Positions 8,585 to 57,950 of a stretch of DNA of 64,000 nucleotides are shown here, piece after piece; the stretch's first letter is position 1; every line of letters begins with the position of its first letter. The notes beneath the pieces are model-generated. The model ran no database searches and was not told the DNA's origin. It saw nothing but the letters and a program-made list of their open reading frames with translations. Source of the DNA: a virus (Duplodnaviria > Caudoviricetes); the IMG/VR virus record IMGVR_UViG_3300043372_000294, positions 32,744-96,743 of that record. The stretch is one strand, 5' to 3'. Position numbers and translations under genes: made by a program.

Positions 8585-8613
8585 GCTTTAGTCTCCACAC
8601 TCACTAAACTGCT

Positions 8614-9281: not shown

Positions 9282-9319
9282 TACACACACTCCTATAAGG
9301 TAAAAGGCTATTATAGCAC

Positions 9320-9344
9320 AAAAAGGAGCGGATTTCTCCGCTCC
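9320..9344 (-). terminator. Intrinsic terminator after major tail gene
   Basis: GGAGCGGA-GAAA-TCCGCTCC followed by TTTTT on minus strand. Confidence 0.75.
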
Positions 9345-9371
9345 CCTTTGTATTGCTATTAATTCTTAAGA

Positions 9372-30078: not shown

Positions 30079-30107
30079 CTAATATTATAGCATAACTTAC
30101 TTATTAG

Positions 30108-30181
30108 CGCCCCCGGTAGGAATCGAACCTACGACCTAGTGGGTAGAAACCACTTGCTCTAATCCGCTGAGCTACAGGGGC
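30108..30181 (-). tRNA. tRNA-Arg(UCU)
   Basis: GCCCCTG acceptor; AGTGG-TTTCTAC-CCACT anticodon arm; GGTTCGATTCC T-arm; CCA not encoded. Confidence 0.95.
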
Positions 30182-30285
30182 AATTATATTACTACACTAC
30201 CATTTATCGGATCACTACGCTACCATCTATCAGGAAATTTCTACACAGTTCATACTATGGTGCATAGATAATTCACGTTATAGAC

Positions 30286-30501
30286 CTATCGCCCGACCGC
30301 CTGACGGAGCGCGACGACCGCACTGCGATCTCTGAGATCCGGATCGGGGTAGGCGTCCCATGCGTCTGAGGCGTCGGCCCATTCGGTGATGAGGGAACGC
30401 AAACGCTTGATCTCGTCGGCGGCACGTTTGTACAACGTCTCATCCCACGGGCTTGGATCATTGGAAATAGCGTAATGAAGATCATCTACAATATTTCTCA
30501 T
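30286..30501 (-). CDS. Small hypothetical protein (paralog of 30498-30743)
   Basis: Shared ADEI..LRSLI..WADA.D...LR..VGR. Confidence 0.65.
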   Translation of the reverse strand: MRNIVDDLHYAISNDPSPWDETLYKRAADEIKRLRSLITEWADASDAWDAYPDPDLRDRSAVVALRQAVGR

Positions 30502-30743
30502 CTTCCAACCTCCGCACGAAGAACATCATAAGCAGCCTCAAGAGCATCATGCTGCTTATTAGTCAAACCCTCAGTATAAATATCATCTGCATCAGCCCAT
30601 GCTTCAATAAGAGAACGAAGATTATAAATCTCATCAGCAAGAAGTGCAATAGCACAAGTAGGATGCCACTGCCAACAATCTGCTGAATGAGTACGAACTA
30701 GATCGTCTCCCCATTTTTCAATAATGCTATCTACAGCATTCAT
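30498..30743 (-). CDS. Small hypothetical protein
   Basis: HS..CW.WH..C motif; RBS AGGAG. Confidence 0.7.
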   Translation of the reverse strand: MNAVDSIIEKWGDDLVRTHSADCWQWHPTCAIALLADEIYNLRSLIEAWADADDIYTEGLTNKQHDALEAAYDVLRAEVGR

Positions 30744-30805
30744 ACTTTCTCCTTTTGATCATAATACTATCCATAAGATACTTTATGGTTATCATACTAT
30801 CCAAG

Positions 30806-30879
30806 TGCGGGTAGTGGGACTCGAACCCACACTGAAGCGGGTTTAAGCCGCCGCCCTCTGCCAGTTGGGGTATACCCGC
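30806..30879 (-). tRNA. tRNA-Leu(UAA), short variable arm (74 nt)
   Basis: GCGGGTA acceptor; GGCGG-CTTAAAC-CCGCT anticodon arm; GGTTCGAGTCC. Confidence 0.9.
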
Positions 30880-30887
30880 TAAATGTT

Positions 30888-30917
30888 TGTGGGGGAGAGA
30901 TTGCCCTCTCCCCCACA
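30888..30917. terminator. Strong GC hairpin upstream of tRNA-Leu
   Basis: TGTGGGGGAGAG-ATTGCC-CTCTCCCCCACA. Confidence 0.5.
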
Positions 30918-30952
30918 GCACTGCCTTCACACGGTTTTGCGCTTCGTTCGGA

Positions 30953-31276
30953 CTATGACATCATATCATTAAGACGGACAATACCATCAGGAATTGCAGC
31001 AAGTCTACAAAGACCTTCCGGCTCAACCGTCTGTAGTACAATGTGACAGACGCCTTCTCCATCGTAATGAGCGCAATTGAAGCACTTGATTCCCCTAGAG
31101 GAAACTTCATTCTCAGATGCCTCAGTATAGCCAACCCATATTCCCTTGCCGTCATTATTCGCAAGTTTTCCATGACGCTCTACAATATTCATCATAGCTT
31201 GAACAAACTCTTTTTCGGGCTGAGGCATAATATTCATAAGCTCATGCGCCATCTTATCTACTAAATTTTCTTCCAC
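30953..31276 (-). CDS. HiPIP-like Cys-motif protein
   Basis: C..C..Y....C.IV...V.P.G.C. Confidence 0.55.
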   Translation of the reverse strand: MEENLVDKMAHELMNIMPQPEKEFVQAMMNIVERHGKLANNDGKGIWVGYTEASENEVSSRGIKCFNCAHYDGEGVCHIVLQTVEPEGLCRLAAIPDGIVRLNDMMS

Positions 31277-31327
31277 AATATCTCCTTTTTTATGCTACGT
31301 TCGCAACTTTTAGATTATACCAGATTT

Positions 31328-31498
31328 TTAAAAATTTTGATACGGAAGAATTCCCGGATCAAGTGTCATTCTTGACATTCCTTTTTCAATCTTCAAAACT
31401 CCAATACGAGAGAGAGATTTATCTCCATCTGGATAAATTTCAATCTCTGTATCAACCGGGTCTGGAAGTTTATCTCCAGAAATCTTTACATTAGCCAT
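31328..31498 (-). CDS. Small hypothetical protein (56 aa, MANVKISGDKLPDP...)
   Basis: Translated by hand; RBS AAGGAG. Confidence 0.55.
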   Translation of the reverse strand: MANVKISGDKLPDPVDTEIEIYPDGDKSLSRIGVLKIEKGMSRMTLDPGILPYQNF

Positions 31499-31519
31499 TC
31501 TATTCTCCTTTATTGAGGG

Positions 31520-31592
31520 TGCCTCCGGTGGGTTTCGATCCCACGACTATCGGCTTAAAAGGCCGCTACTCTTCCAACTGAGTTACAGAGGC
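31520..31592 (-). tRNA. tRNA-Lys(UUU)
   Basis: GCCTCTG acceptor; CGGC-CTTTTAA-GCCG; T-loop variant GGATCGAAACC. Confidence 0.9.
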
Positions 31593-31598
31593 GGAACA

Positions 31599-32021
31599 TC
31601 AAACAGGCCAGATATACTCCAGATCATCTGGCTCTGTCCATCCGAACTGAGAGTAGAATTCTACATCTTTTCTCAGCAAATTGCTACGGTGGGACGCATG
31701 AATTTTTTTATCACCCATCCACTCTGGATACGTAAAATTCTTGTCAATAGACTTAAACGCTTCATAAGTTTTATCAAGACAAGTATCTTTATACCCCCGC
31801 ATTGTCCACGCTGAAACAATTGCAATTTGATAAAGCATAAGATAGCTCTCATGCCCCATCCACATTTTTGTAGCTGGATGATTGATCCAACCCTTGCCTT
31901 TACTCATACCAGCAATTGTTTGCATGATTTGAAGTGTTTCTACTCTTTGCTTACCAAGTCGCTGTCTATCAAGCGACAAGGCGCAGAGAGCGAAATCATC
32001 ACTCGGAAGGAATGTTTGCAC
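31599..32021 (-). CDS. Pyrimidine-dimer DNA glycosylase/endonuclease V-like (MSMEG_6728 family)
   Basis: GTG start QTFLP...LD..RLGKQRVE..QI, W.NHPA..MW, H.SH.SNL.RKD; track start is over-extended. Confidence 0.8.
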   Translation of the reverse strand: MQTFLPSDDFALCALSLDRQRLGKQRVETLQIMQTIAGMSKGKGWINHPATKMWMGHESYLMLYQIAIVSAWTMRGYKDTCLDKTYEAFKSIDKNFTYPEWMGDKKIHASHRSNLLRKDVEFYSQFGWTEPDDLEYIWPV

Positions 32022-32235
32022 TAGTTTCTCCATTGGCAAAATTAGTGAGACGGATACGATAAGATCTAGCAATTTCTTTACTTGCATCAAGTTGTTTTTG
32101 CAAAATTTCAATTTCACTTGCGGCTTGATGAAAGAGCCAGCAGTCAGTATGACCATGATCTTGTTCTGGATTATCTCCAGTCCAAGGTTCACCCGCAGGG
32201 CAAGCTCTTTCACGAAGTTGATCTGGTAAATTCAT
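31999..32235 (-). CDS. Small hypothetical protein
   Basis: RBS AAGGAG; AA.EIE.L motif like the 30286 family. Confidence 0.6.
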   Translation of the reverse strand: MNLPDQLRERACPAGEPWTGDNPEQDHGHTDCWLFHQAASEIEILQKQLDASKEIARSYRIRLTNFANGETSANIPSE

Positions 32236-32422
32236 TGCTGCTCCTTAAATAAGTAGTGTACTATCCATAACTATTATTATGATTATTAAACTATTTATAA
32301 CCATTATTAATCATTAATATAGTTAAGATACTATGCATCGATAAAAAAGAACTCCAGTACCAATTGCAATACCTCATCCCGATCCAATAACTATAGCGGT
32401 TAAAGTATAAGCAATAATTTTC

Positions 32423-32581
32423 TCAGTCATAAAGTCTCAAAGCTCTTTCGATAGCTTTATCCATAATTTCTCCATTATAGAACTCTCCATCTGGATTGTC
32501 CAGAGCTTCAACTATAACACGCGGCAGGATCAAAGTTACAAGATCTTGCATCTCTTCTGCTGTAGGACTGCTTGCTGACAT
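32423..32581 (-). CDS. Small hypothetical protein (52 aa, MSASSPTAEEMQDL...)
   Basis: Translated by hand; RBS GAGGAG. Confidence 0.5.
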   Translation of the reverse strand: MSASSPTAEEMQDLVTLILPRVIVEALDNPDGEFYNGEIMDKAIERALRLYD

Positions 32582-32623
32582 AGTATCTCCTCACATAGTA
32601 TCCAACGACATAGTATTACCTAG

Positions 32624-32697
32624 TCCGGCAGGGTGGGATTGAACCACCGACCACGACTGTATAAGAATCGCGCTCTGACCAACTGAGCTACTGCCGG
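32624..32697 (-). tRNA. tRNA-Ile(UAU)
   Basis: CCGGCAG/CTGCCGG acceptor; CGATT-CTTATAC-AGTCG anticodon arm; GGTTCAATCCC. Confidence 0.9.
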
Positions 32698-40768: not shown

Positions 40769-40770
40769 AG

Positions 40771-40844
40771 TGGGCGTTGAGGGATTCGAACCCCCGACCC
40801 TCTCCTTGTAAGGGAGATGCTCTAACCAACTGAGCTAAACGCCC
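40771..40844 (-). tRNA. tRNA-Val(UAC)
   Basis: GGGCGTT/AACGCCC acceptor; TCTCC-CTTACAA-GGAGA; GGTTCGAATCC. Confidence 0.95.
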
Positions 40845-47968: not shown

Positions 47969-47995
47969 AACCCCCGCAAGGGGGTTATTTTTTTT
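47969..47995 (+). terminator. Intrinsic terminator ending the plus-strand modification operon
   Basis: AACCCCC-GCAA-GGGGGTT then A and T8. Confidence 0.85.
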
Positions 47996-48236
47996 GCCCA
48001 AACCCAAAAAACCCAAAAATTTAATAAATACTCCGACAATGCTGCCCTGCCTACAGGAAACCACTGAAAACGTACAGAGGGCATGGACAACTGGCGTTCG
48101 TGACGCAGACTCGCTCGCTTGCTCGCCCTAGGAATAGGGTTGTGTGCTGACACGCAAATTGAGTACATGACTAGACACGCAGTCAGTCATCCAGTAAGGT
48201 TCACCCATCACCCACTAGCGCCCACGGAGGCACGCC

Positions 48237-48461
48237 ATGAACACCACCACCTACACCATCAACGCAGCGACCGGCAACTACCCCACCACCACTCATGAGG
48301 CAGCAGTCAACAACGGAGAGTCGGAGATGCACGCAGCCGGACTCATCGCCAATGGATGGCGTCAGACCCACGACAACGGCAACATGATCTGTCTCGCTCG
48401 CAACAACGCCACAGTCGTCATCACACGCACGCACGGCAGCGTGCAATACACGCAAGGCTGA
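48237..48461 (+). CDS. Cassette 1 hypothetical protein
   Basis: RBS GGAGG; fills repeat interval. Confidence 0.75.
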   Translation: MNTTTYTINAATGNYPTTTHEAAVNNGESEMHAAGLIANGWRQTHDNGNMICLARNNATVVITRTHGSVQYTQG

Positions 48462-48622
48462 CATGGCAGCGAGCGAGTCTGGCGTTCGTGACGCAGGCTC
48501 GCTCGCTTGCTCGCCCTTGGAAGAGGGTATGTGCTAGCACGCAAATTGAGTACATGACTAGCTTTCTCTCCCGATCTGTGCTTGACTCTCACCAACACCA
48601 ACCAACGCCCACGGAGGCCACC

Positions 48623-48850
48623 ATGAACACCATCACCCGCACCGCCATCAACATCCTCATCGGACTGGGAGCCATCATCGCTCTCACCGCTCCGATGGTG
48701 GGAGCCATGATCCTCGCGCTCTCGCTCTTCCCAGATTCACCCACCGATGCCATCCCCACCATCATCGTGGTGGCAGGTGTCGGAGCCGGACTGGGAGCCA
48801 TGTGGCTCTACAGTCTCATCATGGACCCACTGCTCCCCGCCAATCGCTAG
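48623..48850 (+). CDS. Cassette 2 two-TM membrane protein
   Basis: RBS GGAGG; MNTITRTAINILIGLG... Confidence 0.75.
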   Translation: MNTITRTAINILIGLGAIIALTAPMVGAMILALSLFPDSPTDAIPTIIVVAGVGAGLGAMWLYSLIMDPLLPANR

Positions 48851-48992
48851 CTAGTCGAGCCGGAGTCTGGTGTTCGTGACTCCGGCTCGCTCGCTTGCTC
48901 GCCCTGCCGAATAGGTAGGTAGTTGACAACACACTTGAGTGTGTGTCAGGATGGTGGCTGGCCCCGAGAGACGGGGCAGCAGAAAGGGAATC

Positions 48993-49133
48993 ATGACCGA
49001 AGAAGAGTGGGAGCGCTACGAGGCTGAGATCCTCAACCTTCAGGCGAAGCGTTGGGCGAATCGTGATCAGTCGATCACCAGCGTCGGGTACCGAATGCTG
49101 CAGCGTTCGCAGCAGTCAAAGACTCGCCGGTAG
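48993..49133 (+). CDS. Cassette 3 small protein (46 aa)
   Basis: TTGACA-N18-CAGGAT, hairpin, AGAAAGGG RBS. Confidence 0.7.
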   Translation: MTEEEWERYEAEILNLQAKRWANRDQSITSVGYRMLQRSQQSKTRR

Positions 49134-49275
49134 GTGGCAGCGAGCCGGAGTCCCGTTCGTGATTCCGGCTCGCTCGCTTGCTCGCCCTCCAATGATGTAC
49201 CGACTTGACAGCACACTTGAGTGTCTGCGCACAATGTAGGCGGAGCCGGAAAGACCGGCTCCAAGAAAGGGAAAC

Positions 49276-49524
49276 ATGAACGGAACATACGTCAACCACG
49301 GGGTCCACATCAGTGTGGTGGATTTCTTCCTGACCGAACAGACTTCGGCTGAGAACCCCAAGAACGTGAATCAGGCGATCATCCTGAATCGCACGTTCGC
49401 TGAGGGCGACTACCGCTGTCTCCACACGAACGGGAACCACACTGTCTGGGAAGGCCCCAAGGGCATCGTGACTGTCTCACGATGTGAGCTTCCGACTCTC
49501 ACCGTCTCGCCCCGCGAGTCTTGA
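49276..49524 (+). CDS. Cassette 4 hypothetical protein
   Basis: TTGACA-N19-CACAAT, hairpin, AGAAAGGG RBS. Confidence 0.75.
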   Translation: MNGTYVNHGVHISVVDFFLTEQTSAENPKNVNQAIILNRTFAEGDYRCLHTNGNHTVWEGPKGIVTVSRCELPTLTVSPRES

Positions 49525-49668
49525 GTCAGGGCGAGCCGGAGTCCCGTTCGTGATTCCGGCTCGCTCGCTTGCTCGCCCATGCAGAATGGGTACCTACTTG
49601 CGCAGCAGTTGAACGTGTGTCAGAATGATCCCCGAGGCACTCCCGCCTCCCCCACGAAAGGCAGTCCA

Positions 49669-49893
49669 ATGACCCAGACCCAGTTCCTCGCCTCGCTCCC
49701 CGAGCCCGCCACGGCCCTTGTGGAGCGTGCCATTCGCATGATGCGCAGCACAGACTCCGGCCCGCAGCGTCACGCTCGGGAGTGCATCGTCGCAGCCGCA
49801 GGGATGCTCGTCGGCGCAGGAATGGCAGACACGCTTTCCGGCGCAGTCTTCATGATCGAAGACGGAGCCGGAATCCTCATCCCGCACCCGTAG
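49669..49893 (+). CDS. Cassette 5 hypothetical protein
   Basis: GAAAGG RBS before MTQTQFL. Confidence 0.7.
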   Translation: MTQTQFLASLPEPATALVERAIRMMRSTDSGPQRHARECIVAAAGMLVGAGMADTLSGAVFMIEDGAGILIPHP

Positions 49894-50035
49894 GCGAAAG
49901 CGAGCCGGAGTCCCGTTCGTGATTCCGGCTCGCTCGCTTGCTCGCCCTTGGAGCTAGGTACATAGTTGACAGGGAACTGGAATGCGTGCCTATAATGAGA
50001 TCGGAGCAGCCCCCGCTCCCCAACGAAAGGCAATC

Positions 50036-50143
50036 ATGGCTGATTTCTTCGAAGTAGCTTTCATGCTCTCCCTCCCATTCATCCTCACTTCCCTCATCCT
50101 CCTCATCATCTACGTCATCTACGTCAATCTGGATGACCTATAG
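50036..50143 (+). CDS. Cassette 6 single-TM peptide (35 aa)
   Basis: TTGACA-N19-TATAAT; MADFFEVAFMLSLPFILTSLILLIIYVIYVNLDDL; not in track. Confidence 0.7.
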   Translation: MADFFEVAFMLSLPFILTSLILLIIYVIYVNLDDL

Positions 50144-50276
50144 GCTCCGTCGGCGTTCGTGATTCCGGCTCGCTCGCTTGCTCGCCCATCGACTAGGTAG
50201 GTAGTTGACCCTGGCGGTGAGTATGTGTCAGAATGATCATCAAGGCCCAACACAGGGCGAACAGAAAGGGAAACCA

Positions 50277-50468
50277 ATGCAACTCATAAAGTCCACAGAC
50301 CTTCTCCCCCACGACTCAATCCTCACAGTAGAGGGTGTTTCTCACTTCGTGGTGATGCTCACCCTAGAGCCCGGAGGATGCACGATTCTGTGGCAGTCAA
50401 TGGCCACCGGGGAGCGTTGGCAAGACTGCTACTCAAAGCATGAACGCCTAGAGGTATTCAGGGTCTGA
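50277..50468 (+). CDS. Cassette 7 hypothetical protein
   Basis: TTGACC-N18-CAGAAT, AGAAAGGG RBS. Confidence 0.7.
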   Translation: MQLIKSTDLLPHDSILTVEGVSHFVVMLTLEPGGCTILWQSMATGERWQDCYSKHERLEVFRV

Positions 50469-50576
50469 CAGGCGTTCGTGCTTCCGGACTCGCTCGCTTG
50501 CTCGCCCATTGACTAGCGGCTACGCTTACGCCAGGATTTAGTACCCAAACAGAAACCCAAACAGAAAGGCCCTACA

Positions 50577-50783
50577 ATGATCGTCAAAGTATCCCGAGAG
50601 TACGCCACCGAGAACGGAATCATCTCGGCATCAATCCTGTGCGACTCATGCAACGGACGAACCGGAGCCATCGACACCCCCGATGGGGAGAGCATGACTT
50701 GGGGACCGACGTACTTCGATTGGGAATACCAGTGGTGGCTTTGTGAGCCATGCGCTGACGACTTCATCGCCAACATCGGCTAG
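50577..50783 (+). CDS. Cassette 8 Zn-finger-like protein
   Basis: CDSC...CEPC; AGAAAGG RBS. Confidence 0.7.
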   Translation: MIVKVSREYATENGIISASILCDSCNGRTGAIDTPDGESMTWGPTYFDWEYQWWLCEPCADDFIANIG

Positions 50784-50912
50784 CGGAGGCGTGCGTAGCG
50801 CCGGACTCGCTCGCTTGCTCGCCCATCGAATGCGGATGAGTTGACAGGCCCAATGGAGTATGCAAGTATGCAAAGGAGCGCCGGACCCTCCGGCGCAACG
50901 CAAGGGGAAACC

Positions 50913-51197
50913 GTGAACATCAATACTCGGATCATTGAGACGGACGAAGACTACGCGAGGCGCGAGGTTCTACTAGACGGGCAAGTCGTCGGGGAGATCC
51001 ACCGAAGCAGCGGTTGGGGAGACTACGGGAGAGATAGCCGTTGGTACTTCCCCGGAGGCGGGAGAATGATTCCATGTGAAAGAATGGGGGAGGCAATCTT
51101 GCAGGCCCTGAGGGACCATCTCGCTCCCGAAGAGATGAACGCAGCGCGAATCCAGCTAAAGCTCAGGGGAGCGCATGAGCAACGCTCCCGTGCGTAG
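50913..51197 (+). CDS. Cassette 9 hypothetical protein
   Basis: GTG start after AAGGGG; stop lies inside repeat. Confidence 0.7.
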   Translation: MNINTRIIETDEDYARREVLLDGQVVGEIHRSSGWGDYGRDSRWYFPGGGRMIPCERMGEAILQALRDHLAPEEMNAARIQLKLRGAHEQRSRA

Positions 51198-51313
51198 CGC
51201 CTGATCGCTCGCTTGCTCGCCCCTCGGGAACGGGTGACTTGCACAACGCAATTGGGTATGCAATGATGAACCCAGCGGGCATAGGGCCCGCTGGGATGAG
51301 AAAGGGAAACGAA

Positions 51314-51526
51314 ATGGAAATCGATCTCGCTTGCGGGCATGAGGCAGAACTGGGTTCGGAGGTTTTCTCGCACTACACCATGCGAACGGGCACTATCGTC
51401 CGACTCTACGAAGATGGGTGGTTCGACGTTGTTGGAACTGATCATGGAAATATGCTCAACGGGGAACGGGCCATGTGCCTCGCCTGTGGTGACCGCTACT
51501 GGCCGGAACAACGATCCCGTGCGTAG
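51314..51526 (+). CDS. Cassette 10 Cys/His protein
   Basis: CGH...C..C; stop lies inside repeat. Confidence 0.7.
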   Translation: MEIDLACGHEAELGSEVFSHYTMRTGTIVRLYEDGWFDVVGTDHGNMLNGERAMCLACGDRYWPEQRSRA

Positions 51527-51606
51527 CACAGATCGCTCGCTTGCTCGCCCCCTTGACACCACTTCGGTAGTCAAGTAGATTTAGTACACGAAAGAAAGGG
51601 AAACCC

Positions 51607-51762
51607 ATGCCAGAAGCAACGAAAACCTGCCCGAAGTGCGAAGGGGCCACGATGCTGATCGTTCTAGAAGAGCTCGTCATGAGTCTGATTTACTGCCCCG
51701 ATTGTCGGGGACGGGGACGGATCCCGTGCGTAGCATCAGATCGCTCGCTTGCTCGCCCATGA
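51607..51762 (+). CDS. Cassette 11 DnaJ-type Zn-finger peptide (51 aa)
   Basis: CPKCEG...CPDCRGRG; reads through the repeat; not in track. Confidence 0.6.
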   Translation: MPEATKTCPKCEGATMLIVLEELVMSLIYCPDCRGRGRIPCVASDRSLARP

Positions 51763-51850
51763 TCAACGGCGCATAGTTGCATTCCTACTTGAGTGTATGT
51801 CTATAATGGGTATCAGGATGTCCCCGACTCACGAACACAGGAGAAACACA

Positions 51851-51940
51851 ATGAGAACCGCAATGTTTTTCGCACTCGTCCTACTCCTCCCCGCCCTGAC
51901 TCTCTACACAGGGCGACAGGGCCGACGCTCCCGTGCGTAG
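51851..51940 (+). CDS. Cassette 12 hydrophobic peptide (29 aa)
   Basis: TTGCAT-N19-TATAAT, AGGAG RBS; stop inside repeat. Confidence 0.6.
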   Translation: MRTAMFFALVLLLPALTLYTGRQGRRSRA

Positions 51941-52131
51941 CACCCGCTCGCTCGCTTGTTCGTCCATCCAGACCGTACCTCTAAAATTTCTACATTGAGT
52001 GTACATAGTTATCCACAGAAGCCGCCAACTATTTAGTCTTCTCTTTGCCTTCTCGTAACCTTCCGTTCACTTGGGTATGATTCAATGGTGTCTGTCGGGG
52101 GGACAGTCCCCCCGACATGAGAAAGGGAATC

Positions 52132-52488
52132 ATGATCAGGATCTACCGGAAGGCAAAGCGCACCGCTAAGCCGACCAAAGCAAAGCGTGAGACAGTCACT
52201 CACGCACTGGCACTGTCTCGCGTCGATCGGCCCAACGTCGTCGAACTCTTCATGTCGGGAGAGTTCCACCGACTCCCCATCGTTCCGCCCCATGTCGTGA
52301 AAAACCCTGCGCTACGTCGTCGGGATCACGCGAACGATGGGTGGGTCGTGCCAGTCGCTGACTACGGGCGAGGCAATCGTGAAGAGTCGAAACTGACTCA
52401 GCAGCTGCTGCTCTTCATCGTTCGATATTTCGTCGATACCGGCGTGATCGATCGCGACGAATACGCAATCGTCGTAGACCCAGACTGA
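52132..52488 (+). CDS. Cassette 13, 118-aa paralog family copy A
   Basis: IRIYRKAK.T.KP.KA.R...SGEFH.LPIVP.H..KN..LR.RD. Confidence 0.85.
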   Translation: MIRIYRKAKRTAKPTKAKRETVTHALALSRVDRPNVVELFMSGEFHRLPIVPPHVVKNPALRRRDHANDGWVVPVADYGRGNREESKLTQQLLLFIVRYFVDTGVIDRDEYAIVVDPD

Positions 52489-52630
52489 ACACAGTCCACC
52501 GAGTTATCCACAGGCAGTAGTCGAGCCTGTGGATAACTCCCGTGCTCCGCACGCCGCTCGCTCGCTTGTTCGTCCATCCGATTACGTTCCTAGTTGACAG
52601 GAAGATTGAATGCCCATGTATACTGATCCC

Positions 52631-52948
52631 ATGACACTGACCGACTTCATCGCAACCGTAACCCGACTGGCCATCGCTCTAAGCGACGGAGATAACGTGT
52701 ACGTTTCCGGCGCTCTACTGCGACCCATTCACAAGGCCATGAAAGCCGAACGAATCCGCCTCACTGATGCGGAGTTCGCCGCTCTCATGTACGAATGGCA
52801 GAAGTCAGAATCGCACAAGCCGCAGGATGAGTCAGTCATGTTCACGGCAGCCACTGGTACCAAAAACGGAACGCACTACTGGCTCAGAATTGATGACGCA
52901 CCTTGGACAGTACACTTCGTCGGAATCCGTCTCCGCCGCCCAAAATGA
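52631..52948 (+). CDS. Cassette 14 hypothetical protein, probably leaderless
   Basis: TTGACA-N19-TATACT with ATG 6 nt after the -10; no RBS. Confidence 0.7.
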   Translation: MTLTDFIATVTRLAIALSDGDNVYVSGALLRPIHKAMKAERIRLTDAEFAALMYEWQKSESHKPQDESVMFTAATGTKNGTHYWLRIDDAPWTVHFVGIRLRRPK

Positions 52949-53053
52949 AGCTCCCGTACGCTCCGCACGCCGCTCGCTCGCTTGTTCGTCCACTTGACGC
53001 CATCCCCACACTCGACTAGATTGAATACGCAAACAGAAACCGAAAGGGACACC

Positions 53054-53272
53054 ATGACAATCCGCCCCATTGCAGACTGCACCATCGAAACCGGAGAGCC
53101 CGAGCTTTGCGAAGATGGAGAGATCCGCTACCGACTCACCGCCCGATTCCCCGATGGAACGTGGATGGCCACCTACTGGCACCCTCCGCTTCCCCCTCGA
53201 CCGGGGATGCCCGGAGGAAACTGGCAGACCATCGAAGAATTCACCTCATGGATCGAATGGGCCCGGTCCTAG
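53054..53272 (+). CDS. Cassette 15 hypothetical protein
   Basis: TTGACG-N17-TAGATT, GAAAGGG RBS. Confidence 0.7.
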   Translation: MTIRPIADCTIETGEPELCEDGEIRYRLTARFPDGTWMATYWHPPLPPRPGMPGGNWQTIEEFTSWIEWARS

Positions 53273-53395
53273 TACCCGCACGCCGCTCGCTCGCTTGTTC
53301 GTCCACCGATCATGTACCAACTTGACAGCCCAGTTGAGCATCTGCGCATAATGGACCCCCGAGGCATCCCCGCCTCACCCCGAAAGGAAAACCCA

Positions 53396-53752
53396 ATGGA
53401 AATCCGCATCTACCGCAAGGCCAAGCTCACCACGAAGCCCACGAAGGCCGTTCGTGCAGCCGTGGAGCATGAGCTCATGATCTCCCGCTTCCCGAAGCCC
53501 CTCACCACCGAGTGGTTCCTCTCCGGCGAGTTTCACCGCCTCCCGATCGTTCCCGCTCACATCATCAAGAACGCCCCACTCCGCCAGCGTGACTACATCG
53601 ACGCAGGATGGATTGTGCCGGAGTCCGAGCACGGACGCATCAACCGTGAGCCGGAGAAAGCCTCACAGGTCATCCACGCATGGATCGTGCGCTACATGGT
53701 GGCAGCCGGAGCCATCGATCGTGCCGAGTTCGCCGTAGTGGTGGACCACTGA
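53396..53752 (+). CDS. Cassette 16, 118-aa paralog family copy B
   Basis: As copy A; TTGACA-N19-CATAAT. Confidence 0.85.
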   Translation: MEIRIYRKAKLTTKPTKAVRAAVEHELMISRFPKPLTTEWFLSGEFHRLPIVPAHIIKNAPLRQRDYIDAGWIVPESEHGRINREPEKASQVIHAWIVRYMVAAGAIDRAEFAVVVDH

Positions 53753-53901
53753 CCCAGGAACAGCGGCGGCGCGGTTGTGCGGAGGCACGCCGCTCGCTCG
53801 CTTGTTCGTCCACGGAGAAGGTACCCAGTTCGACAGGCAGTTGAGTACACGCTACGATTCACGACAGGGCCGACGGGGCCCTGCACAGAAAGGGAAAACC
53901 A

Positions 53902-54186
53902 ATGGAAAACACTGAGTCGAAAGCTCACGAGATTCTCGGCGGCGAGCGTCTCGCGTGGATGAAGGGCGCCCCGTGCGTCGGGCGAGGAGAACTGTTCTTC
54001 GGCCCCTTCCGTGAGGGCGAGAAGGGCCGCCGACGTCGGGAGCATTTCGCTCGCCAGATCTGCCAGACCTGCGATGCGATGCAGGAATGCCGCCAGTACG
54101 CCCGAGACGCCCACGAACAGGGTTACTGGGGCGGCGAGGGCGAAGAGGCACGCGAGCGAGCAGTGAGGCTCACACAGGGCGCATGA
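53902..54186 (+). CDS. whiB: WhiB-family transcriptional regulator (cassette 17)
   Basis: W...A.C.G...LFF...A..IC..C.....C..YA.....GYWGG. Confidence 0.9.
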   Translation: MENTESKAHEILGGERLAWMKGAPCVGRGELFFGPFREGEKGRRRREHFARQICQTCDAMQECRQYARDAHEQGYWGGEGEEARERAVRLTQGA

Positions 54187-54809
54187 GCGAGGGCGAGCGG
54201 TTGTGCGGAGGCACGCCGCTCGCTCGCTTGTTCGTCCATGAAACTACGAAGCAAAATGCTCCAAAATTGATCACATTCCACAAAACGCTGCCTATGTAAC
54301 CCTGTTACAATGTGTTTATGAACATAACTATGTTCAAAATACCCTCTTATAAGACCCCTTCTAGATATCCCCGCCCAAGGAGGGAGGGCGCCAGCCCGCC
54401 GCTCGCTCGCTTGTTCGTCCACCCGAACCGTATCTGTAAAATTCTTACATTGAGTACGCATAGTTATCCACACCCTGTGGAAAAGTTATCCACAGCCCTG
54501 TGGAAAACCCGTTGGGTGCATATTCATGCATCGAAACGCAAAATATGCATACCCTCTCAGATCGCACAGAATGGCCCTAGAGCCGTCCGACCCCCATTGC
54601 GCCACAGCTACCGCAGAAAGTCCTCGCAGACGCTTAGGGAGGACCGTATAGAAATCCTACAATCCGCCCCAATCTGTAGAGAAAACCTACAGAAACAGCG
54701 TCAAAAGGTGTGACGGATGTCACATCTCAGAATTGTGTACCTAGCTACGAAACGCGATACGCTTCACCTAGTGAGTCGAACCGTTCGGTTCACAGAAAGG
54801 CAGTCAGTC

Positions 54810-55166
54810 ATGCGAATCCTCATCTACCGGAAGGCAAAGCTCACCGCCAAGCCTTCCAAAGCGAAGCGTGAAGCTCTCGCCCACGAGCTTGCCATCTCCC
54901 GAATCTCGAAGCCTCAGGTTCGCGAGTTCTTCGAGTCCGGCGAGTTCCACAAACTGCCAATCGTTCCGCAGCACGTTGTGAAGAACGCCCCACTCCGAAT
55001 CCGCGACCACTCCGCCGATGGCTGGGAGGTTCCCGAAGATGAGTTCGGAAACGTGAACCGTGAGCTTGAGAAGGCTTCCCAAGTGATTCACGCGTGGATC
55101 ATCCGCTACATCGTCGCATCGGGGATCATCTCACGCGAAGAGTTCGCAGTCGTAGTCGAACCCTAG
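54810..55166 (+). CDS. Cassette 19, 118-aa paralog family copy C
   Basis: AGAAAGG RBS before MRILIYRKAK. Confidence 0.85.
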   Translation: MRILIYRKAKLTAKPSKAKREALAHELAISRISKPQVREFFESGEFHKLPIVPQHVVKNAPLRIRDHSADGWEVPEDEFGNVNRELEKASQVIHAWIIRYIVASGIISREEFAVVVEP

Positions 55167-55173
55167 AACCCCA

Positions 55174-55216
55174 AAGTTATCCACAGGCAGCAGTCGGGCC
55201 TGTGGATAACTTTTTT
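55174..55216 (+). terminator. Terminator hairpin built from inverted DnaA boxes (similar hairpin at 52501-52539)
   Basis: AAGTTATCCACAGGC...GCCTGTGGATAACTT followed by a T-run. Confidence 0.7.
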
Positions 55217-55531
55217 GCGGTCGTCCTACGGACGCCGCCCGCTCGCTTGTTCGTCCAGCAATTAGGTTCCTATTTATGTACCCATTTTAGTGCATAATCG
55301 TAAACATAAATAGCTTTCTGACGTTGAGATACATAATCAATTTCCTAAATATGTTCCAAAATATGTCTTATAAGGGCTACATATATATGCCCCGGCCAGC
55401 CTCTAGTAATGTTACAAAACTGGTGTGACGGATGTCACATCTCAGGATTGTGTTTATGTTCCCCCTAGCGAGTATCTTGGAGTTTGTGGCCGAGAGGGAC
55501 TTAGCCACAAAGTAGGAAGGGAAAGCTAATT

Positions 55532-55786
55532 ATGTTCACAGGTGGCATCACACGACAGCAATTCCTGAGGATGGCAGAAATCCTCGGGCTGACCGGCGAA
55601 GAGCAAGCAGTAATTATGTACCGATTTGGTATCGGTGACGGAATTGTCCGCACCATTCCCGAAGTGACAAAGATCATGAATCGGGAACATAATTATGCAG
55701 AGGACGATGAGTATCGGAACGAAGATATCCGAACCATAGAATCCGTTGCTATTCGTGCAATCAACGGACTAGAGGGGGGAGCATAA
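55532..55786 (+). CDS. Stand-alone sigma-70 region-4-like HTH protein
   Basis: LT.EEQ.VI.YRFGIGDG..RT..EV......EDIR.IE..AIR matches the sigma4 pattern. Confidence 0.7.
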   Translation: MFTGGITRQQFLRMAEILGLTGEEQAVIMYRFGIGDGIVRTIPEVTKIMNREHNYAEDDEYRNEDIRTIESVAIRAINGLEGGA

Positions 55787-55788
55787 TT

Positions 55789-55962
55789 ATGCGAGTAAAT
55801 ACTAGAAAGAACAGTTCGATGCGTAAGCGACCTACTCACAGTTCGGTAGTAGCAAAGTCGAAAACGCACAAATCTTCTGAGAAAGAAAAGAAGAGAGAAC
55901 TGCAAGCTAAATATGTTGCTAAACTCTCAGCCTCCGCCCAAGATCTCACGAAAGGTGCCTAA
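55789..55962 (+). CDS. Small basic protein (57 aa, MRVNTRKNSS...)
   Basis: Translated by hand; GGAG RBS. Confidence 0.5.
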   Translation: MRVNTRKNSSMRKRPTHSSVVAKSKTHKSSEKEKKRELQAKYVAKLSASAQDLTKGA

Positions 55963-56014
55963 ATAGGTTCCTCACATATTTAGGTAGCTGTCCCCCCTTT
56001 CCGGCTACCTAATT

Positions 56015-56050
56015 AGATACCCCACCAGTTCCGCCGCTGGTGGGGTATCT
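56015..56050 (+). terminator. Hairpin with TTCCGCCG loop (twin at 56753-56794)
   Basis: AGATACCCCACCAG/CTGGTGGGGTATCT; twin AGATAACCCCCTCGG/CCGAGGGGGTTATCT plus T-run. Confidence 0.7.
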
Positions 56051-56441
56051 TCATATCCATCTAAATATGTTCCCAAATAGATTCCTAAATAGGTACATAA
56101 ATAAGTACATAAATAGCAGGGCGGGCCCGCTCGCGGTTCCTGTTTCTTGCCCGCCCTCTAATTATGTACCTAAATAGGTTGCTACTTTGATACATAATTC
56201 TATTCTCAATTATGTACCTAAATATCCTCTATAAAATGTAAATACATATCCCCGTAAATAGATTCCCAACTATGTCCTATAATAGCAACATATTTATGCC
56301 CCGACTTTGACGTTTGTAAAACTTCTACAAGGTGTGACGGATGTCACACCGCAGAATGCCATTTATGTTCCCCATCTAGGGTAAGTTAGTGTCAACGGAT
56401 CGGGGCAATACGGCCCCGCCGCTAGAAAAGGAAACGCAATT

Positions 56442-56714
56442 ATGTTTGAAATCATTCCCGTCTCAGAGGTTCGGGTTTCGCCCCGTGGCCGAAAGACCAC
56501 CTACAACGAGGACCTGATCAAGGCTCTCAAGACCCTCAAGACAGGACAGGCCGTGAACCTCGGCGGACTCTACGGGAACGTAGCGAAGAAGGACCGAGCG
56601 AGCGTCGCCCAGAGCATCCGCAAGCACTGGAAGGCTGCTCGCGAGGACGGTTGTCGGATCGATTGGGATTCCGAAACCGGTTTCGCTCAGATTCAGGCTA
56701 AGGCAGATAAGTAG
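56442..56714 (+). CDS. Small basic putative DNA-binding protein (VSPRGRK), paralog 1
   Basis: AGAAAAGG RBS; clearly similar to 57082-57366. Confidence 0.85.
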   Translation: MFEIIPVSEVRVSPRGRKTTYNEDLIKALKTLKTGQAVNLGGLYGNVAKKDRASVAQSIRKHWKAAREDGCRIDWDSETGFAQIQAKADK

Positions 56715-57023
56715 CCACCAGTTTATGTAGGGTCCCGCCCCCCTACATAAATAGATAACCCCCTCGGTTCCGCCGCCGAGGGGGTTATCTTTTTGCGTCC
56801 CTAAATAGATACCTAAATAGGAACATAAGTACAAACATAATTAGCTACCTAAATAGATACATATTTATGTACATAATTGGCGGGGTGTTCCCCTCAGCTT
56901 TTCGGGAACATGAACACCCCCTAAATATGTACCTAATTATGTTGCTACTTTGATACATATTTTGAAACCTATTTATCTACCCCAGATAGCTCTATAATTA
57001 TGTAACCATTTACCCCGCCAAAT

Positions 57024-57057
57024 AAAAAAGCCCCCGAGCATCCTTCGCTCGGGGGCT
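57024..57057 (-). terminator. Terminator for 57082-57366
   Basis: AGCCCCCGAGC/GCTCGGGGGCT then T-run on minus strand. Confidence 0.8.
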
Positions 57058-57081
57058 GGCACTACTTAGGGGGCTAAATAT

Positions 57082-57366
57082 CTAACCCCTACGGGCAAGG
57101 CTAACCTGCGCCATGCCCGTCTCGCCGTTCCAATCGATTCGGCACGCATCCTCACGCACATGGCGCCAATGTTTCCGAATCGTTTGGGCGACGGAGGCAC
57201 GCTGCGACTTGGGGACATTGCCGAACGGAGTGAGAACCAACGCCTGACCTTCCTTCAGCGCTGCCAGCGCCTTTAGAAGATCTTCGTTGAAAACCGTCTT
57301 GCGACCCCTCGGGCTAACTCGCACCTCGGAAACCGGAATTACTTCAAACTTACTCATGTCACTCAC
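57082..57366 (-). CDS. Small basic putative DNA-binding protein (VSPRGRK), paralog 2, inverted
   Basis: GAGGAGG RBS; FE.IPVSEVRVSPRGRKT..NEDL.KAL. Confidence 0.85.
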   Translation of the reverse strand: MSDMSKFEVIPVSEVRVSPRGRKTVFNEDLLKALAALKEGQALVLTPFGNVPKSQRASVAQTIRKHWRHVREDACRIDWNGETGMAQVSLARRG

Positions 57367-57950
57367 CTCCTCTCAGAATCTCAGTGTGTCGGTGAGCCGT
57401 TCCCACCAACAACTAAAACTTACTCGCTAACCCCTACATAAACACAATCGTAGCGTGTGACATCCGTCACACCCTCTAACATTCCTACAACGCCGCCACC
57501 GCATACTCAGCCACATAAACAGCCGCATACACAGCAACATAAACAACAGCATACATACAAACATAAACAGCAAACTAAATAGAAACATAAATAGCGGCAT
57601 ACTTATGTACATAATTAGGCACGGGCGTTCCCATCGCCTTTTATGGGAACTTGACGCCCGTTATTTATGTAGCTAATTAGCTGCCTAGTTGAGTCTATAA
57701 TTGGAAACCTATTCCCCCGCCTAATTATGTGCCCAGTTATGTAAACTCATTTATGTGCCTAATTAGGTAAAGTGATTTCGGTTTCAGAAGTTTATTCAGA
57801 TCTAAAGATAGAGATTTTATATAGCCCTTATAAGGGCCCTTTTTATTTGCCCCGCCAAGGCAGAATCTTATCCATCAATTTGCGCATACCAGTCAACTAG
57901 AGTACGCTACTCCTATCGAAGCAATCATCCCCAACACGAAAGTGCGAATT

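What the first reader, a model, noticed from the sequence alone, without database searches (positions are those of the whole stretch)
48091..55293. Integron-like array of about 20 self-contained gene cassettes
Seen: the typical unit is repeat, sigmaA-like promoter (TTGACA-N17-19-TANNNT/CANNAT), 5' stem-loop, AGAAAGG(G)-type RBS, one 29-118 aa ORF, then the next repeat. Most units are 200-600 bp and all are co-oriented. The block is visibly much more GC-rich than the rest of the window. Cargo is mostly unrelated (TM peptides, Zn fingers, WhiB, three paralogs), and one unit (54238-54396) is empty. Established precedents: PeSL promoter-stem-loop modules that shuffle small ORFs in T4-type phages, SPO1-type host-takeover modules, and integron attC arrays. 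Inference: a modular, shufflable early-gene (host-takeover or anti-defence) locus. No recombinase is present in this window.
Basis: partly seen in the sequence, partly recalled or inferred. Interest (0 to 1): 0.88.

Follow-up and report, generated by a model that had tools for sequence, protein, structure and literature searches.

The report
Repeat-bounded small-gene cassette array in actinophage
A virus of actinobacteria carries a GC-rich run of about 19 tiny genes, each with its own start and stop signals. They are separated by an almost invariant 18-base repeat at which related viruses have gained, lost and swapped whole genes, like the 'PeSL' cassettes of T4-type phages and unlike an integron.

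Summary
There are 20 co-oriented copies of TCGCTCGCTTGYTCGYCC at window 48111-55256, where chance predicts none, and none elsewhere in the 96.7-kb phage record. Each copy is followed 29 or 30 nt later by a TTGAGTA-like box. Most units then carry a sigmaA-type promoter, often a 5' hairpin, an AGAAAGG Shine-Dalgarno and one 29-118 aa ORF. The array is 57.6% GC against 40.5% for the rest of the window; ORF GC3 is 0.70 against 0.35.

Metagenome contigs of at least five related lineages carry the same repeat at the same genomic place, with different cassette sets. Whole cassettes are present or absent, one has changed position, and 51 of 91 homology-block ends lie inside the repeat (10.5 expected).

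No tyrosine or serine integrase, RecT or Erf was found. The phage encodes a RecA-like protein, exonucleases and SSB.

The best reading is a PeSL-like terminator-promoter repeat that also serves as a crossover site for homologous recombination in an early-gene block. It is not an integron. The invariance of the core and the fixed spacing to TTGAGTA point to an additional, unidentified protein-binding role. Cargo function is unknown apart from one WhiB.

This scan has reported PeSL-like arrays in other phages. Cultured Streptomyces cluster-BE phages have an analogous GC3-rich block.

The parts
47969..47996 (+). Intrinsic terminator (GC hairpin plus T-run) that closes the upstream + strand operon. 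The array starts about 100 nt downstream.
   Evidence: Terminator scan. Homology with relative L011 ends at 48092.
48111..48498 (+). Unit 1: core 48111-48128, TTGAGTA box 30 nt after the core, ORF 48237-48461 (74 aa). No canonical sigmaA promoter found.
48499..48886 (+). Unit 2: core, strong hairpin using the 5' half of the core as right arm (-39 kcal/mol), ORF 48623-48850 (75 aa, hydrophobic).
48887..49169 (+). Unit 3: core, TTGACA-N18-CAGGAT, 5' hairpin, AGAAAGGG SD, ORF 48993-49133 (46 aa).
49170..49560 (+). Unit 4: core, TTGACA-N19-CACAAT, 5' hairpin, ORF 49276-49524 (82 aa). Family H, also found in the L017 and L018 lineage.
49561..49929 (+). Unit 5: core, ORF 49669-49893 (74 aa).
49930..50169 (+). 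Unit 6: core, TTGACA-N19-TATAAT, ORF 50036-50143 (35 aa, hydrophobic). The cassette is shared with L011 at 89% nt identity, and the homology is bounded by the two flanking repeats.
50170..50489 (+). Unit 7: core, TTGACC-N18-CAGAAT, ORF 50277-50468 (63 aa).
50490..50806 (+). Unit 8: core, promoter abutting the core (short-leader class), ORF 50577-50783 (68 aa, CxxC...CxxC). Family M, which lies on the other side of cassette B in L012.
50807..51204 (+). Unit 9: core, TTGACA-N17-AAGTAT, 5' hairpin, ORF 50913-51197 (94 aa, GTG start). Its C-terminal RSRA and stop codon are encoded by the 5' flank of the next repeat.
51205..51532 (+). Unit 10: core, 5' hairpin, ORF 51314-51526 (70 aa). Family B, shared with L011, L013, L023 and L020.
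51533..51740 (+). Unit 11: core, TTGACA-N17-TAGATT abutting the core, ORF 51607-51762 (51 aa Zn-ribbon) that reads through the next core. Absent in L023.
51741..51947 (+). Unit 12: core, ORF 51851-51940 (29 aa, hydrophobic). L013 has two other cassettes here, and the homology stops at the 3' end of the core (51760).
51948..52557 (+). Unit 13: hybrid repeat (B-type 5' flank with the TTGTTCGTCC core variant), TTATCCACA boxes, ORF 52132-52488 (118 aa, paralog family A).
52558..52973 (+). Unit 14: core, TTGACA-N19-TATACT, ATG 7 nt after the -10 (probably leaderless), ORF 52631-52948 (105 aa, family D).
52974..53286 (+). Unit 15: core, TTGACG-N17-TAGATT, ORF 53054-53272 (72 aa, family E). The whole cassette is absent from L013 and L023, and both breakpoints lie inside the repeat.
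53287..53793 (+). Unit 16: core, TTGACA-N19-CATAAT, 5' hairpin, ORF 53396-53752 (118 aa, paralog family A).
53794..54219 (+). Unit 17: core, TCGACA-N17-TACGAT, 5' hairpin, ORF 53902-54186 (94 aa WhiB). The whole cassette is absent from L023, and the breakpoints lie inside the repeat.
54220..54402 (+). Unit 18: an ORF-less, AT-rich 183-nt unit with 12-nt ATGTTC-type iterons. It is conserved in length (179-183 nt) and position in all lineages.
54403..55238 (+). Unit 19: core, long leader with TTATCCACA boxes and a TGTGA-N6-TCACA palindrome, ORF 54810-55166 (118 aa, paralog family A), then a TTATCCACA-palindrome terminator.
55239..55256 (+). Terminal (20th) core, with one mismatch. It is followed by an iteron-type promoter and the gene at 55532-55786.

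Best explanation
The block is a hyperplastic, probably early-expressed gene array of a virulent-type siphovirus of Actinobacteria, a distant relative of the Streptomyces cluster-BE phages.

Each small gene is its own transcription unit. The intergenic repeat is a composite 'punctuation' module. It comprises a GC-rich hairpin at the end of the previous gene, often with the 5' half of the core as its right arm. Then come the invariant 18-nt core, exactly 29-30 nt of cassette-specific sequence and a TTGAGTA box. SigmaA-type -35 and -10 hexamers overlap this stretch. Many units add a 5'-terminal mRNA hairpin and a Shine-Dalgarno.

The repeat is the only sequence shared by otherwise unrelated cassettes. 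It therefore serves as the crossover point for homologous recombination, in register or out of register, between replicating copies or co-infecting relatives. The phage's RecA-like protein, exonucleases and SSB, or host enzymes, could carry this out. The outcome is deletion, duplication, replacement and occasional relocation of whole genes without damage to their expression signals.

Shown: the anatomy, cassette flux among relatives, breakpoints in the repeats, and purifying selection on the ORFs. Inferred: promoter and terminator activity, early timing, and the enzyme responsible.
For: The same core and array sit at the same genomic place (after the methyltransferase operon, before the iteron region) in 12 contigs of at least five lineages from independent ENA, JGI and Logan assemblies.

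Cassette maps differ by whole units. E is absent in L013 and L023. WhiB is absent in L023. Units 11-12 are absent in L023. Unit 12 is replaced in L013. L011 shares only cassettes L and B plus the right-hand block with the window. M lies before B in the window but after B in L012.

Homology-block ends lie 0-8 nt from the 3' end of the core or 3-23 nt upstream of it. 51 of 91 distinct ends lie inside the 45-nt repeat window; the random expectation is 10.5 +/- 3.0, with a maximum of 23 in 2000 trials.

Both alleles of the E and WhiB polymorphisms are seen in two independent assemblies each.

No Tyr or Ser recombinase, RecT or Erf was found. A RecA-like protein is encoded at genome 16621-17601, with DnaE, DnaG and DnaB. 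Exonuclease, Cas4-type nuclease, SSB and HNH families are also present.

Evidence for early expression. Array GC3 is 0.70 against 0.33-0.35 for structural genes. All five phage tRNAs read A-ending codons: AGA, UUA, AAA, AUA and GUA. Those codons are almost absent from array ORFs: AGA 5/117 against 99/265, TTA 0/106 against 65/448, ATA 1/97 against 71/452.

The geometry of -10, then 6-8 nt, then hairpin or leaderless ATG is kept across divergent copies.

The precedent is PeSL (PMC2839356, PMC4122927).
Against: Homology alone does not explain two features. The core is identical (17/17, apart from positions 11 and 15) in 114 distinct units from lineages whose backbone proteins are only about 35-90% identical. 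The TTGAGTA box also keeps an exact 29/30-nt distance.

In some units of other lineages the recognisable promoter lies about 45 nt beyond the TTGAGTA box. The bipartite element is therefore not simply 'the promoter'.

Only 12-13 of 20 units have a convincing sigmaA promoter, and a strict scan is not enriched. Hairpins that use the core are strong in only about 7 of 20 units.

There are no expression data, and the host is unknown. Shared cassettes are mostly collinear, so 'shuffling' is mainly gain, loss and replacement. The contigs are short-read metagenome assemblies, and three scaffolds have 100-N gaps inside the array.
Confidence: 0.6

Rival explanations
1. The bipartite element (core, 29/30 nt, TTGAGTA) is mainly a regulatory site for one sequence-specific protein, of phage or host origin. 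This protein would switch all cassettes on or off together, like stoperators, phiC31 CIR sites or host-factor boxes in phage promoters. Recombination at the repeats would be a by-product.
For: The core is invariant across lineages whereas its 5' flank is lineage-specific and homogenised within genomes. The spacing is strictly 29/30 nt in 87 of 127 units and takes no other value. In the common promoter class the TTGAGTA box lies between -35 and -10, and in the short-leader class it lies over the -10. A bound protein there would occlude RNA polymerase. The same phage region uses other boxes that resemble host-factor sites: TTATCCACA, TGTGA-N6-TCACA and 12-nt iterons. Earlier scan note e1-118477 reports a phage whose repeated early-promoter motif is a host marbox.
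Against: No candidate binding protein was identified. The core is asymmetric, GC-rich and matches no consensus that I could name. Its distance to the sigmaA hexamers takes two values about 16-17 nt apart, so it is not phased on one face of the helix. No repressor or integrase points to a temperate lifestyle. This rival does not conflict with the recombination evidence.
Confidence: 0.22
2. This is a true site-specific or nuclease-targeted cassette system. An unrecognised recombinase or a homing-type (HNH) nuclease recognises the bipartite element, possibly as a folded hairpin, and excises, inserts or converts cassettes. It would be a functional analogue of integron attC x attC recombination.
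For: Right-hand homology ends pile up within 0-3 nt of the 3' edge of the core. The element has two conserved boxes around a fixed-length variable middle. Hairpins with a conserved right arm occur in a subset of units. One cassette has moved relative to another. The genome encodes HNH endonucleases.
Against: No tyrosine or serine recombinase is present in the 92%-complete genome. The block ends are equally what homologous crossover in a short repeat predicts. Order is mostly collinear, with no sign of insertion at one preferred end. The cassettes are not promoterless. The hairpin is not universal, and in the L017 lineage it lies wholly upstream of the core. HUH families were not searched.
Confidence: 0.08
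3. The core works at the RNA level, as part of the 3' end of the upstream transcript. It could be a U-tract-less terminator arm, a Rho-loading C-rich tract, or an RNase processing or stabilising site. It would then be conserved for that reason.
For: The core is A-free and C/U-rich on the coding strand. It forms the right arm of very stable hairpins (-33 to -44 kcal/mol, z below -3.8) in units 2-6 and 18. In subfamily B the repeat flank supplies the stop codon and the last residues (RSRA) of three unrelated ORFs.
Against: The hairpin that uses the core is missing or replaced by other hairpins in more than half of the units and in other lineages. No Rfam family matches. An RNA role does not explain the fixed distance to the TTGAGTA box downstream.
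Confidence: 0.1
4. The cassette differences are assembly artefacts: chimeric joins across repeats in short-read metagenomes.
For: Three scaffolds have 100-N gaps flanked by duplicated 55-mers inside the array.
Against: The repeats are 18-45 nt, shorter than reads and final k-mers. The same variant junctions recur in independent assemblies: the E-less form in L013 and L023, and L011 matches L012 at 100% over 1.6 kb. The ORFs show purifying selection.
Confidence: 0.02

Closest known systems
PeSL (promoter-early stem-loop) regulatory cassettes in hyperplastic regions of T4-type phages (Arbiol et al. 2010, PMC2839356; Comeau et al. 2014, PMC4122927)
   Same: Both are composite intergenic terminator-hairpin plus sigma70-type early-promoter modules upstream of small ORFan genes. 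In both, indels and replacements between related phages are bounded by the module. In both, recombination is homologous and no integrase is involved.
   Different: The host and phage type differ: an actinobacterial siphovirus-like phage with a 1919-aa tape measure, not a T4-like myovirus. There is one dense contiguous array of 20 units in 7.2 kb rather than about 50 scattered copies. The conserved part is a GC-rich 18-nt core upstream of the promoter plus a TTGAGTA box at a fixed 29/30 nt, not the promoter hexamers and an AT-rich UP region. The array is a GC3-rich island. Mini-circles were not tested.
GC3-rich block of about 20 small single-gene units in the first ~10 kb of Streptomyces phage Mildred21 (cluster BE, Stanwilliamsviridae). 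Cluster-BE phage Coruscant has a 12-kb direct terminal repeat (PMC7650747).
   Same: These are the nearest cultured relatives by portal protein (40-45% identity). They are low-GC phages with tRNAs in a higher-GC host. Small co-oriented genes each sit behind a hairpin, a conserved motif, a -10 box and an SD. GC3 is 0.72 in the block against 0.46 next to it. ATGTACC/ATGTCCG-type short iterons are present.
   Different: The repeated sequences are different: a TGTCCGGNCCGGACA palindrome and a TAGACT -10, with no 18-nt core. No cassette homology was found. I did not test whether BE phages exchange cassettes at their modules. The one cluster-BE paper read here (PMC7650747) does not describe such an array.
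Integrons (intI, attI, attC cassette arrays)
   Same: Both are co-oriented arrays of single small genes separated by a recurring site. Cassette content varies between relatives, with boundaries at the site.
   Different: No integrase was found. The repeats do not have attC architecture (no R''/L''-L'/R' palindrome or GTTRRRY box). Every cassette has its own promoter. Order is mostly collinear rather than driven by insertion at attI.
Morons of lambdoid phages
   Same: Each cassette is an autonomous promoter, gene and terminator unit.
   Different: Morons are single insertions between essential genes. They are not a repeat-delimited array sharing one junction sequence.
Stoperators of cluster A mycobacteriophages and CIR operator sites of phiC31 (from my own knowledge, not checked in papers here)
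   Same: Both involve many copies of a short asymmetric site, co-oriented with transcription, in intergenic positions next to promoters or terminators.
   Different: Those sites are spread genome-wide in temperate phages and are bound by the phage repressor. Here no repressor or integrase was found, and the sites are confined to one array.

Membership tests
Integron | IntI-type tyrosine recombinase encoded next to the array | tested here: not met
   PF00589 found nothing in the whole 96.7-kb record (92% complete) while it hit all 14 control genomes. PF00239 also found nothing.
Integron | attC sites: imperfect palindromes with conserved R''/L'' and L'/R' boxes (GTTRRRY) | tested here: not met
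   The repeat is an asymmetric 18-nt core followed 29/30 nt later by TTGAGTA. Hairpins are absent from many units, and no GTTRRRY box is present.
Integron | Promoterless cassettes expressed from a common Pc promoter | tested here: not met
   12-13 of 20 units carry their own TTGACA-N16-19-nAnnnT, and hairpins lie between units. This is a prediction, not an expression measurement.
Integron | Cassette content varies, with boundaries at the recombination site | tested here: met
PeSL-type regulatory cassettes | Composite module of a sigma70-type early promoter and a stem-loop terminator in intergenic position | tested here: met
   Met by sequence prediction only. Promoter hexamers sit at fixed offsets and stable hairpins lie upstream. 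No functional assay was done.
PeSL-type regulatory cassettes | Located upstream of small ORFan genes in a hyperplastic region | tested here: met
   16 of 18 cargo proteins have no Pfam or PHROG hit. Content is highly variable among relatives.
PeSL-type regulatory cassettes | Indels and replacements between related phages are bounded by the motif | tested here: met
   51 of 91 block ends lie inside the repeat against 10.5 expected.
PeSL-type regulatory cassettes | Sequence conservation resides in the promoter consensus and the AT-rich upstream region; described in T4-like myoviruses | tested here: not met
   The conserved part is a GC-rich core outside the hexamers plus a TTGAGTA box. The phage is a siphovirus-like actinophage.
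PeSL-type regulatory cassettes | Formation of excised mini-circles by recombination between neighbouring motifs | not testable with these tools
   This needs raw reads or PCR on phage DNA.
Repressor operator arrays (stoperator or CIR type) | Sites bound by a phage repressor in a temperate phage | tested here: inconclusive
   No integrase was found and no repressor was recognised. Binding cannot be tested in silico.
CRISPR array | Short (about 25-50 nt) non-coding spacers between repeats | tested here: not met
   The 'spacers' are 165-818 nt and encode proteins under purifying selection.

The most novel reading that the evidence does not exclude
The invariant core, the fixed 29/30-nt spacer and the TTGAGTA box together form a dedicated recognition site for a still unidentified protein, possibly the conserved 118-aa A-family protein, an HNH nuclease or a host factor. 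That protein would actively target recombination or co-ordinated regulation to cassette boundaries. The array would then be an integrase-free, phage-borne functional analogue of an integron. It would feed on a pool of GC3-rich early genes shared among divergent actinophages.
Probability: 0.15. Interest if true: 0.8.

Novelty: new variant of a known kind. Interest (0 to 1): 0.55.

Why it matters
The result extends repeat-mediated cassette exchange, described so far for T4-type phages, to a lineage of uncultured actinophages. Here the case is unusually clean. One contiguous array is delimited by a junction sequence that stays identical across lineages whose backbone proteins have diverged to roughly 55% identity.

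The array links three features that are rarely seen together. Each gene has its own expression signals. There is a sharp GC3 jump (0.70 against 0.35). The array avoids exactly the codons served by the phage's own tRNAs. Together these suggest a division of labour in which early genes are translated by the host's tRNA pool and late genes by phage tRNAs.

The array is also a compact catalogue of about 60 small ORFan families under purifying selection. These are good candidates for host-takeover or counter-defence screens. The bipartite element is a concrete, testable binding site.

Tried and rejected
- An exact-core scan of IMG/VR gave only two single chance hits.
- Searches of viral contigs with the paralog alignment and with the flanking 206-aa methyltransferase found no relatives. 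Relatives were reached only through the search for homologous proteins and the look-up of encoding contigs.
- blastn of the whole array and tblastn of WhiB against 50,697 deposited phages found nothing.
- The 41-nt repeat gave only single 20-nt chance hits inside genes of Microbacterium and Mycobacterium phages, with no arrays.
- The metagenome scan for the core returned mostly single chance matches. Only L074 and L057 carry several copies.
- Rfam gave no family at E below 0.1.
- Host identification through the phage peptide deformylase failed; the best hits are unrelated phyla at about 30% identity.
- Recombinases could not be searched in the relatives' full records, because those records are not held.
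- A position weight matrix for the TTGAGTA box alone is not specific outside the array, so it is not a genome-wide promoter motif.
- I compared the bipartite element from memory with known sigma, response-regulator and HspR (HAIR) consensus sequences. None fits both boxes and their spacing. These comparisons are leads only.
- The A-family protein gave a confident model (pLDDT 92.4). It has no Foldseek hit at E of 0.001 or below, and the best VIA Z is 3.4.
- Cassette proteins shared between distant lineages (64-78% identity) are not clearly more similar than backbone proteins (35-91%). Recent cross-lineage transfer is therefore not shown.

Full report
CONTEXT

The window is bases 32744-96743 of a 96,743-bp IMG/VR virus record that is linear and 92% complete. 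Most genes lie on the minus strand. They include a 1919-aa tape measure, portal, head protease, capsid-type protein, endolysin and ribonucleotide reductase. Upstream of the window are DnaE, DnaG, DnaB and a RecA-like protein.

A WhiB gene and an Rpf-type transglycosylase (PF06737) mark the phage as an actinophage. The portal is 40-45% identical to those of the 128-134-kb Streptomyces cluster-BE phages of the Stanwilliamsviridae.

THE OBSERVATION

The 18-nt core TCGCTCGCTTGYTCGYCC occurs 20 times between 48111 and 55256, always on the + strand. Shuffles predict none, and the rest of the genome has none.

I anchored all units on the core, first the 20 window units and then 114 distinct units from all related loci. 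This showed three conserved features:
- the core itself, invariant except at positions 11 and 15;
- a GG 9-10 nt after the core;
- an ATTKAGTA box.

The box lies exactly 29 nt (72 units) or 30 nt (15 units) after the core and never at another distance. The remaining 40 of 127 units have degenerate versions at the same place.

Downstream, 12-13 of the 20 window units have a TTGACA-like hexamer, 16-19 nt and nAnnnT at one of two fixed offsets. A strict sigma-70 scan is not enriched over shuffles, so the promoter claim is true for a majority of units, not for all.

In the common class, the -10 is followed after 6-8 nt by a GC hairpin and then by AGAAAGG(G) and the start codon. In cassette D it is followed directly by the ATG. 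Divergent copies keep this geometry. I take this as indirect support that these are the working promoters.

There are eighteen ORFs of 29-118 aa. Between orthologous cassettes of different contigs, substitutions fall 178/142/641 at codon positions 1/2/3, so the ORFs are real genes.

Cargo is as follows:
- one WhiB;
- one weak Zn-ribbon and one CxxC...CxxC protein;
- three hydrophobic peptides;
- three paralogs of a 118-aa family, modelled with pLDDT 92.4 but with no clear structural relative in the PDB;
- otherwise ORFans.

COMPOSITION

The array is 57.6% GC against 40.5% for the rest of the window. The arrays of all related contigs are 54-59% GC against about 41%. The difference lies at synonymous sites: GC3 is 0.70 against 0.35.

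The phage encodes five tRNAs: Arg-TCT, Leu-TAA, Lys-TTT, Ile-TAT and Val-TAC. All read A-ending codons. Those codons are common in the structural genes and nearly absent from the array. For example, TTA is 0/106 against 65/448 and ATA is 1/97 against 71/452.

My inference is that the array can be translated by the tRNA pool of a GC-richer host without phage tRNAs, which fits genes expressed first.

The cultured relative Mildred21 shows the same pattern. Its first ~10 kb holds about 20 small co-oriented genes. Each sits behind a hairpin, a conserved TGTCCGGNCCGGACA palindrome, a TAGACT -10 and an SD. GC3 is 0.72 there against 0.46 next door. Cluster-BE phage Coruscant has a 12-kb direct terminal repeat, 48% GC in a 72% GC host, and 41 tRNAs (PMC7650747). 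That paper does not describe such an array.

COMPARATIVE TEST

Homologues of the 118-aa paralog led to twelve contigs from ENA, JGI and Logan assemblies. All carry 4-21 co-oriented copies of the same core. The array sits at the same genomic position, after the methyltransferase operon and before an iteron-rich region.

Clustering the cassette proteins gives the following maps (x is a unique cassette, A is the paralog, I is WhiB):

- Window: x K x H x L x M x B N x A D E A I empty A
- L011: x x x x L x C O x B (x) E P A D E A I empty A
- L013: B N x x A D A I empty A
- L023: B A D A empty A
- L017: x H x C R O A J A empty A
- L018: Q H x C R x G A
- L020: C B G A J A empty A
- L021: x x K x C A G A S T empty A

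At nucleotide level:
- Cassette E (window 52992-53287) is missing from L013 and L023, with both breakpoints inside the repeat.
- The WhiB cassette (53812-54220) is missing from L023 in the same way.
- Units 11-12 are missing from L023.
- Unit 12 is replaced in L013, and homology stops 1 nt after the core.
- L011 shares cassettes L and B as islands bounded by repeats.
- The left edge of all homology with L011 is the first repeat (48092).

Over all pairs, 51 of 91 distinct block ends fall in the 45-nt repeat window. The random expectation is 10.5 +/- 3.0, with a maximum of 23 in 2000 trials.

Shared cassettes are mostly collinear. However, M lies before B in the window and after B in L012, and E is duplicated in L011.

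Neither holds.

As caveats, these are short-read assemblies and three scaffolds have 100-N gaps in the array. Against that, the repeats are shorter than reads, and both alleles of the E and WhiB polymorphisms recur in independent assemblies.

ENZYMES

The genome has no tyrosine or serine recombinase, RecT or Erf. It does encode a RecA-like protein and exonuclease, Cas4-type nuclease, SSB and HNH endonuclease families. HUH families were not searched.

WHAT THE REPEAT IS

In units 2-6, 17 and 18 the 5' half of the core is the right arm of a very stable hairpin at the end of the upstream gene. Other units and other lineages use separate hairpins or none.

In subfamily B the repeat flank supplies the last residues (RSRA) and the stop codon of three unrelated ORFs. 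A fourth ORF reads through the core.

The 5' flank of the repeat is lineage-specific and uniform within a genome. That is the signature of concerted evolution by recombination or gene conversion. The core, by contrast, is identical across lineages whose backbone proteins are 35-91% identical.

In several units of the L014, L017 and L021 lineages, the recognisable promoter lies about 45 nt beyond the TTGAGTA box, behind a TGTGA-N6-TCACA palindrome.

The core, spacer and TTGAGTA box are thus a unit in their own right, under constraint on sequence and on spacing. Homology-driven recombination does not require that. I therefore think a protein reads this element, as an operator that overlaps the promoters or as a targeting site for recombination. 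I could not identify that protein.

VERDICT

The anatomy and the cassette flux are real. The closest known system is the PeSL promoter-terminator cassette of T4-type phages (PMC2839356, PMC4122927), which works by homologous recombination without an integrase.

This array differs from PeSL in four ways:
- the phage and host group;
- its form as one dense array;
- a conserved part that is a GC-rich bipartite element rather than the promoter consensus;
- its GC3 and tRNA signature.

It fails three of the four defining features of an integron.

Earlier reports of this scan describe PeSL-like arrays in T4-like cyanophages and marine phages, so the kind is not new to the scan. I rate it a new variant of a known kind, of moderate interest.

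Noticed in passing
window 52008-52016, 52505-52541, 54466-54500, 55177-55213: Perfect TTATCCACA (DnaA-box-like) motifs, several arranged as palindromic hairpins, flank the A-family paralog cassettes. Relatives have the same motifs (L013, L011). They may be host DnaA sites or part of a phage origin.
   Followed up: no
window 54707-54724, 55422-55439, 56331-56348 (+) and 57459-57476 (-): GGTGTGACGGATGTCACA, a TGTGA-N6-TCACA palindrome of CRP/GlxR type, is repeated four times upstream of small genes. Related palindromes follow the TTGAGTA box in the first units of the L014, L017 and L021 arrays.
   Followed up: partly
window 55260-57600, and inside unit 18 (54300-54345): Runs of 12-nt periodic iterons (TAAATAGGTACC / TAATTATGTTCC) sit around terminators and promoters downstream of the array. 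ATGTACC/ATGTCCG-type repeats also occur in the Mildred21 block (L176). With the DnaA-like boxes, this may be an origin or a second regulatory class.
   Followed up: partly
window 55532-55786 (+): The 84-aa protein just after the last core resembles region 4 of primary sigma factors. Its only PDB sequence hits are RpoD/SigA region 4, best E 0.002. It may be a sigma-region-4 decoy or mimic. WhiB proteins bind that region, and a WhiB cassette lies in the array.
   Followed up: partly
window 30107-32697 and 40770-40844 (-): Five tRNA genes (Arg-TCT, Leu-TAA, Lys-TTT, Ile-TAT, Val-TAC) all read A-ending codons that the array ORFs avoid.
   Followed up: yes
window 52132-52488, 53396-53752, 54810-55166: The 118-aa A family is present in 2-3 copies in every related array. 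It folds confidently (pLDDT 92.4, pTM 0.84) but has no clear match in the PDB (best VIA Z 3.4, no Foldseek hit at E of 0.001 or below).
   Followed up: yes
window 56442-56714 (+) and 57082-57366 (-): Two divergently oriented paralogous ~90-aa genes flank an iteron-rich spacer. Both match the same gene in L017 at 50-56% identity. Function is unknown.
   Followed up: no
L176 (Streptomyces phage Mildred21, NC_042008.1) 900-9900: This cultured cluster-BE phage has about 20 small co-oriented genes, each preceded by a hairpin, a TGTCCGGNCCGGACA palindrome, a TAGACT -10 and an SD. The block is 52-60% GC and its GC3 is 0.72. The architecture is analogous, and the one cluster-BE paper I read does not describe it.
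   Followed up: partly
L011 8895-8994, L013 1099-1198, L014 9374-9473: 100-N scaffold gaps flanked by duplicated 55-mers lie inside three related arrays. One 'unit' in my L011 map (u11) is therefore probably an artefact.
   Followed up: yes
genome 16621-17601 (-), upstream of the window: A phage-encoded RecA-family protein (PF00154, E 1.7e-15) lies next to a DnaE-type polymerase. Exonuclease, Cas4-type nuclease, SSB, HNH, dCMP deaminase and polynucleotide kinase families are present in the same module.
   Followed up: partly
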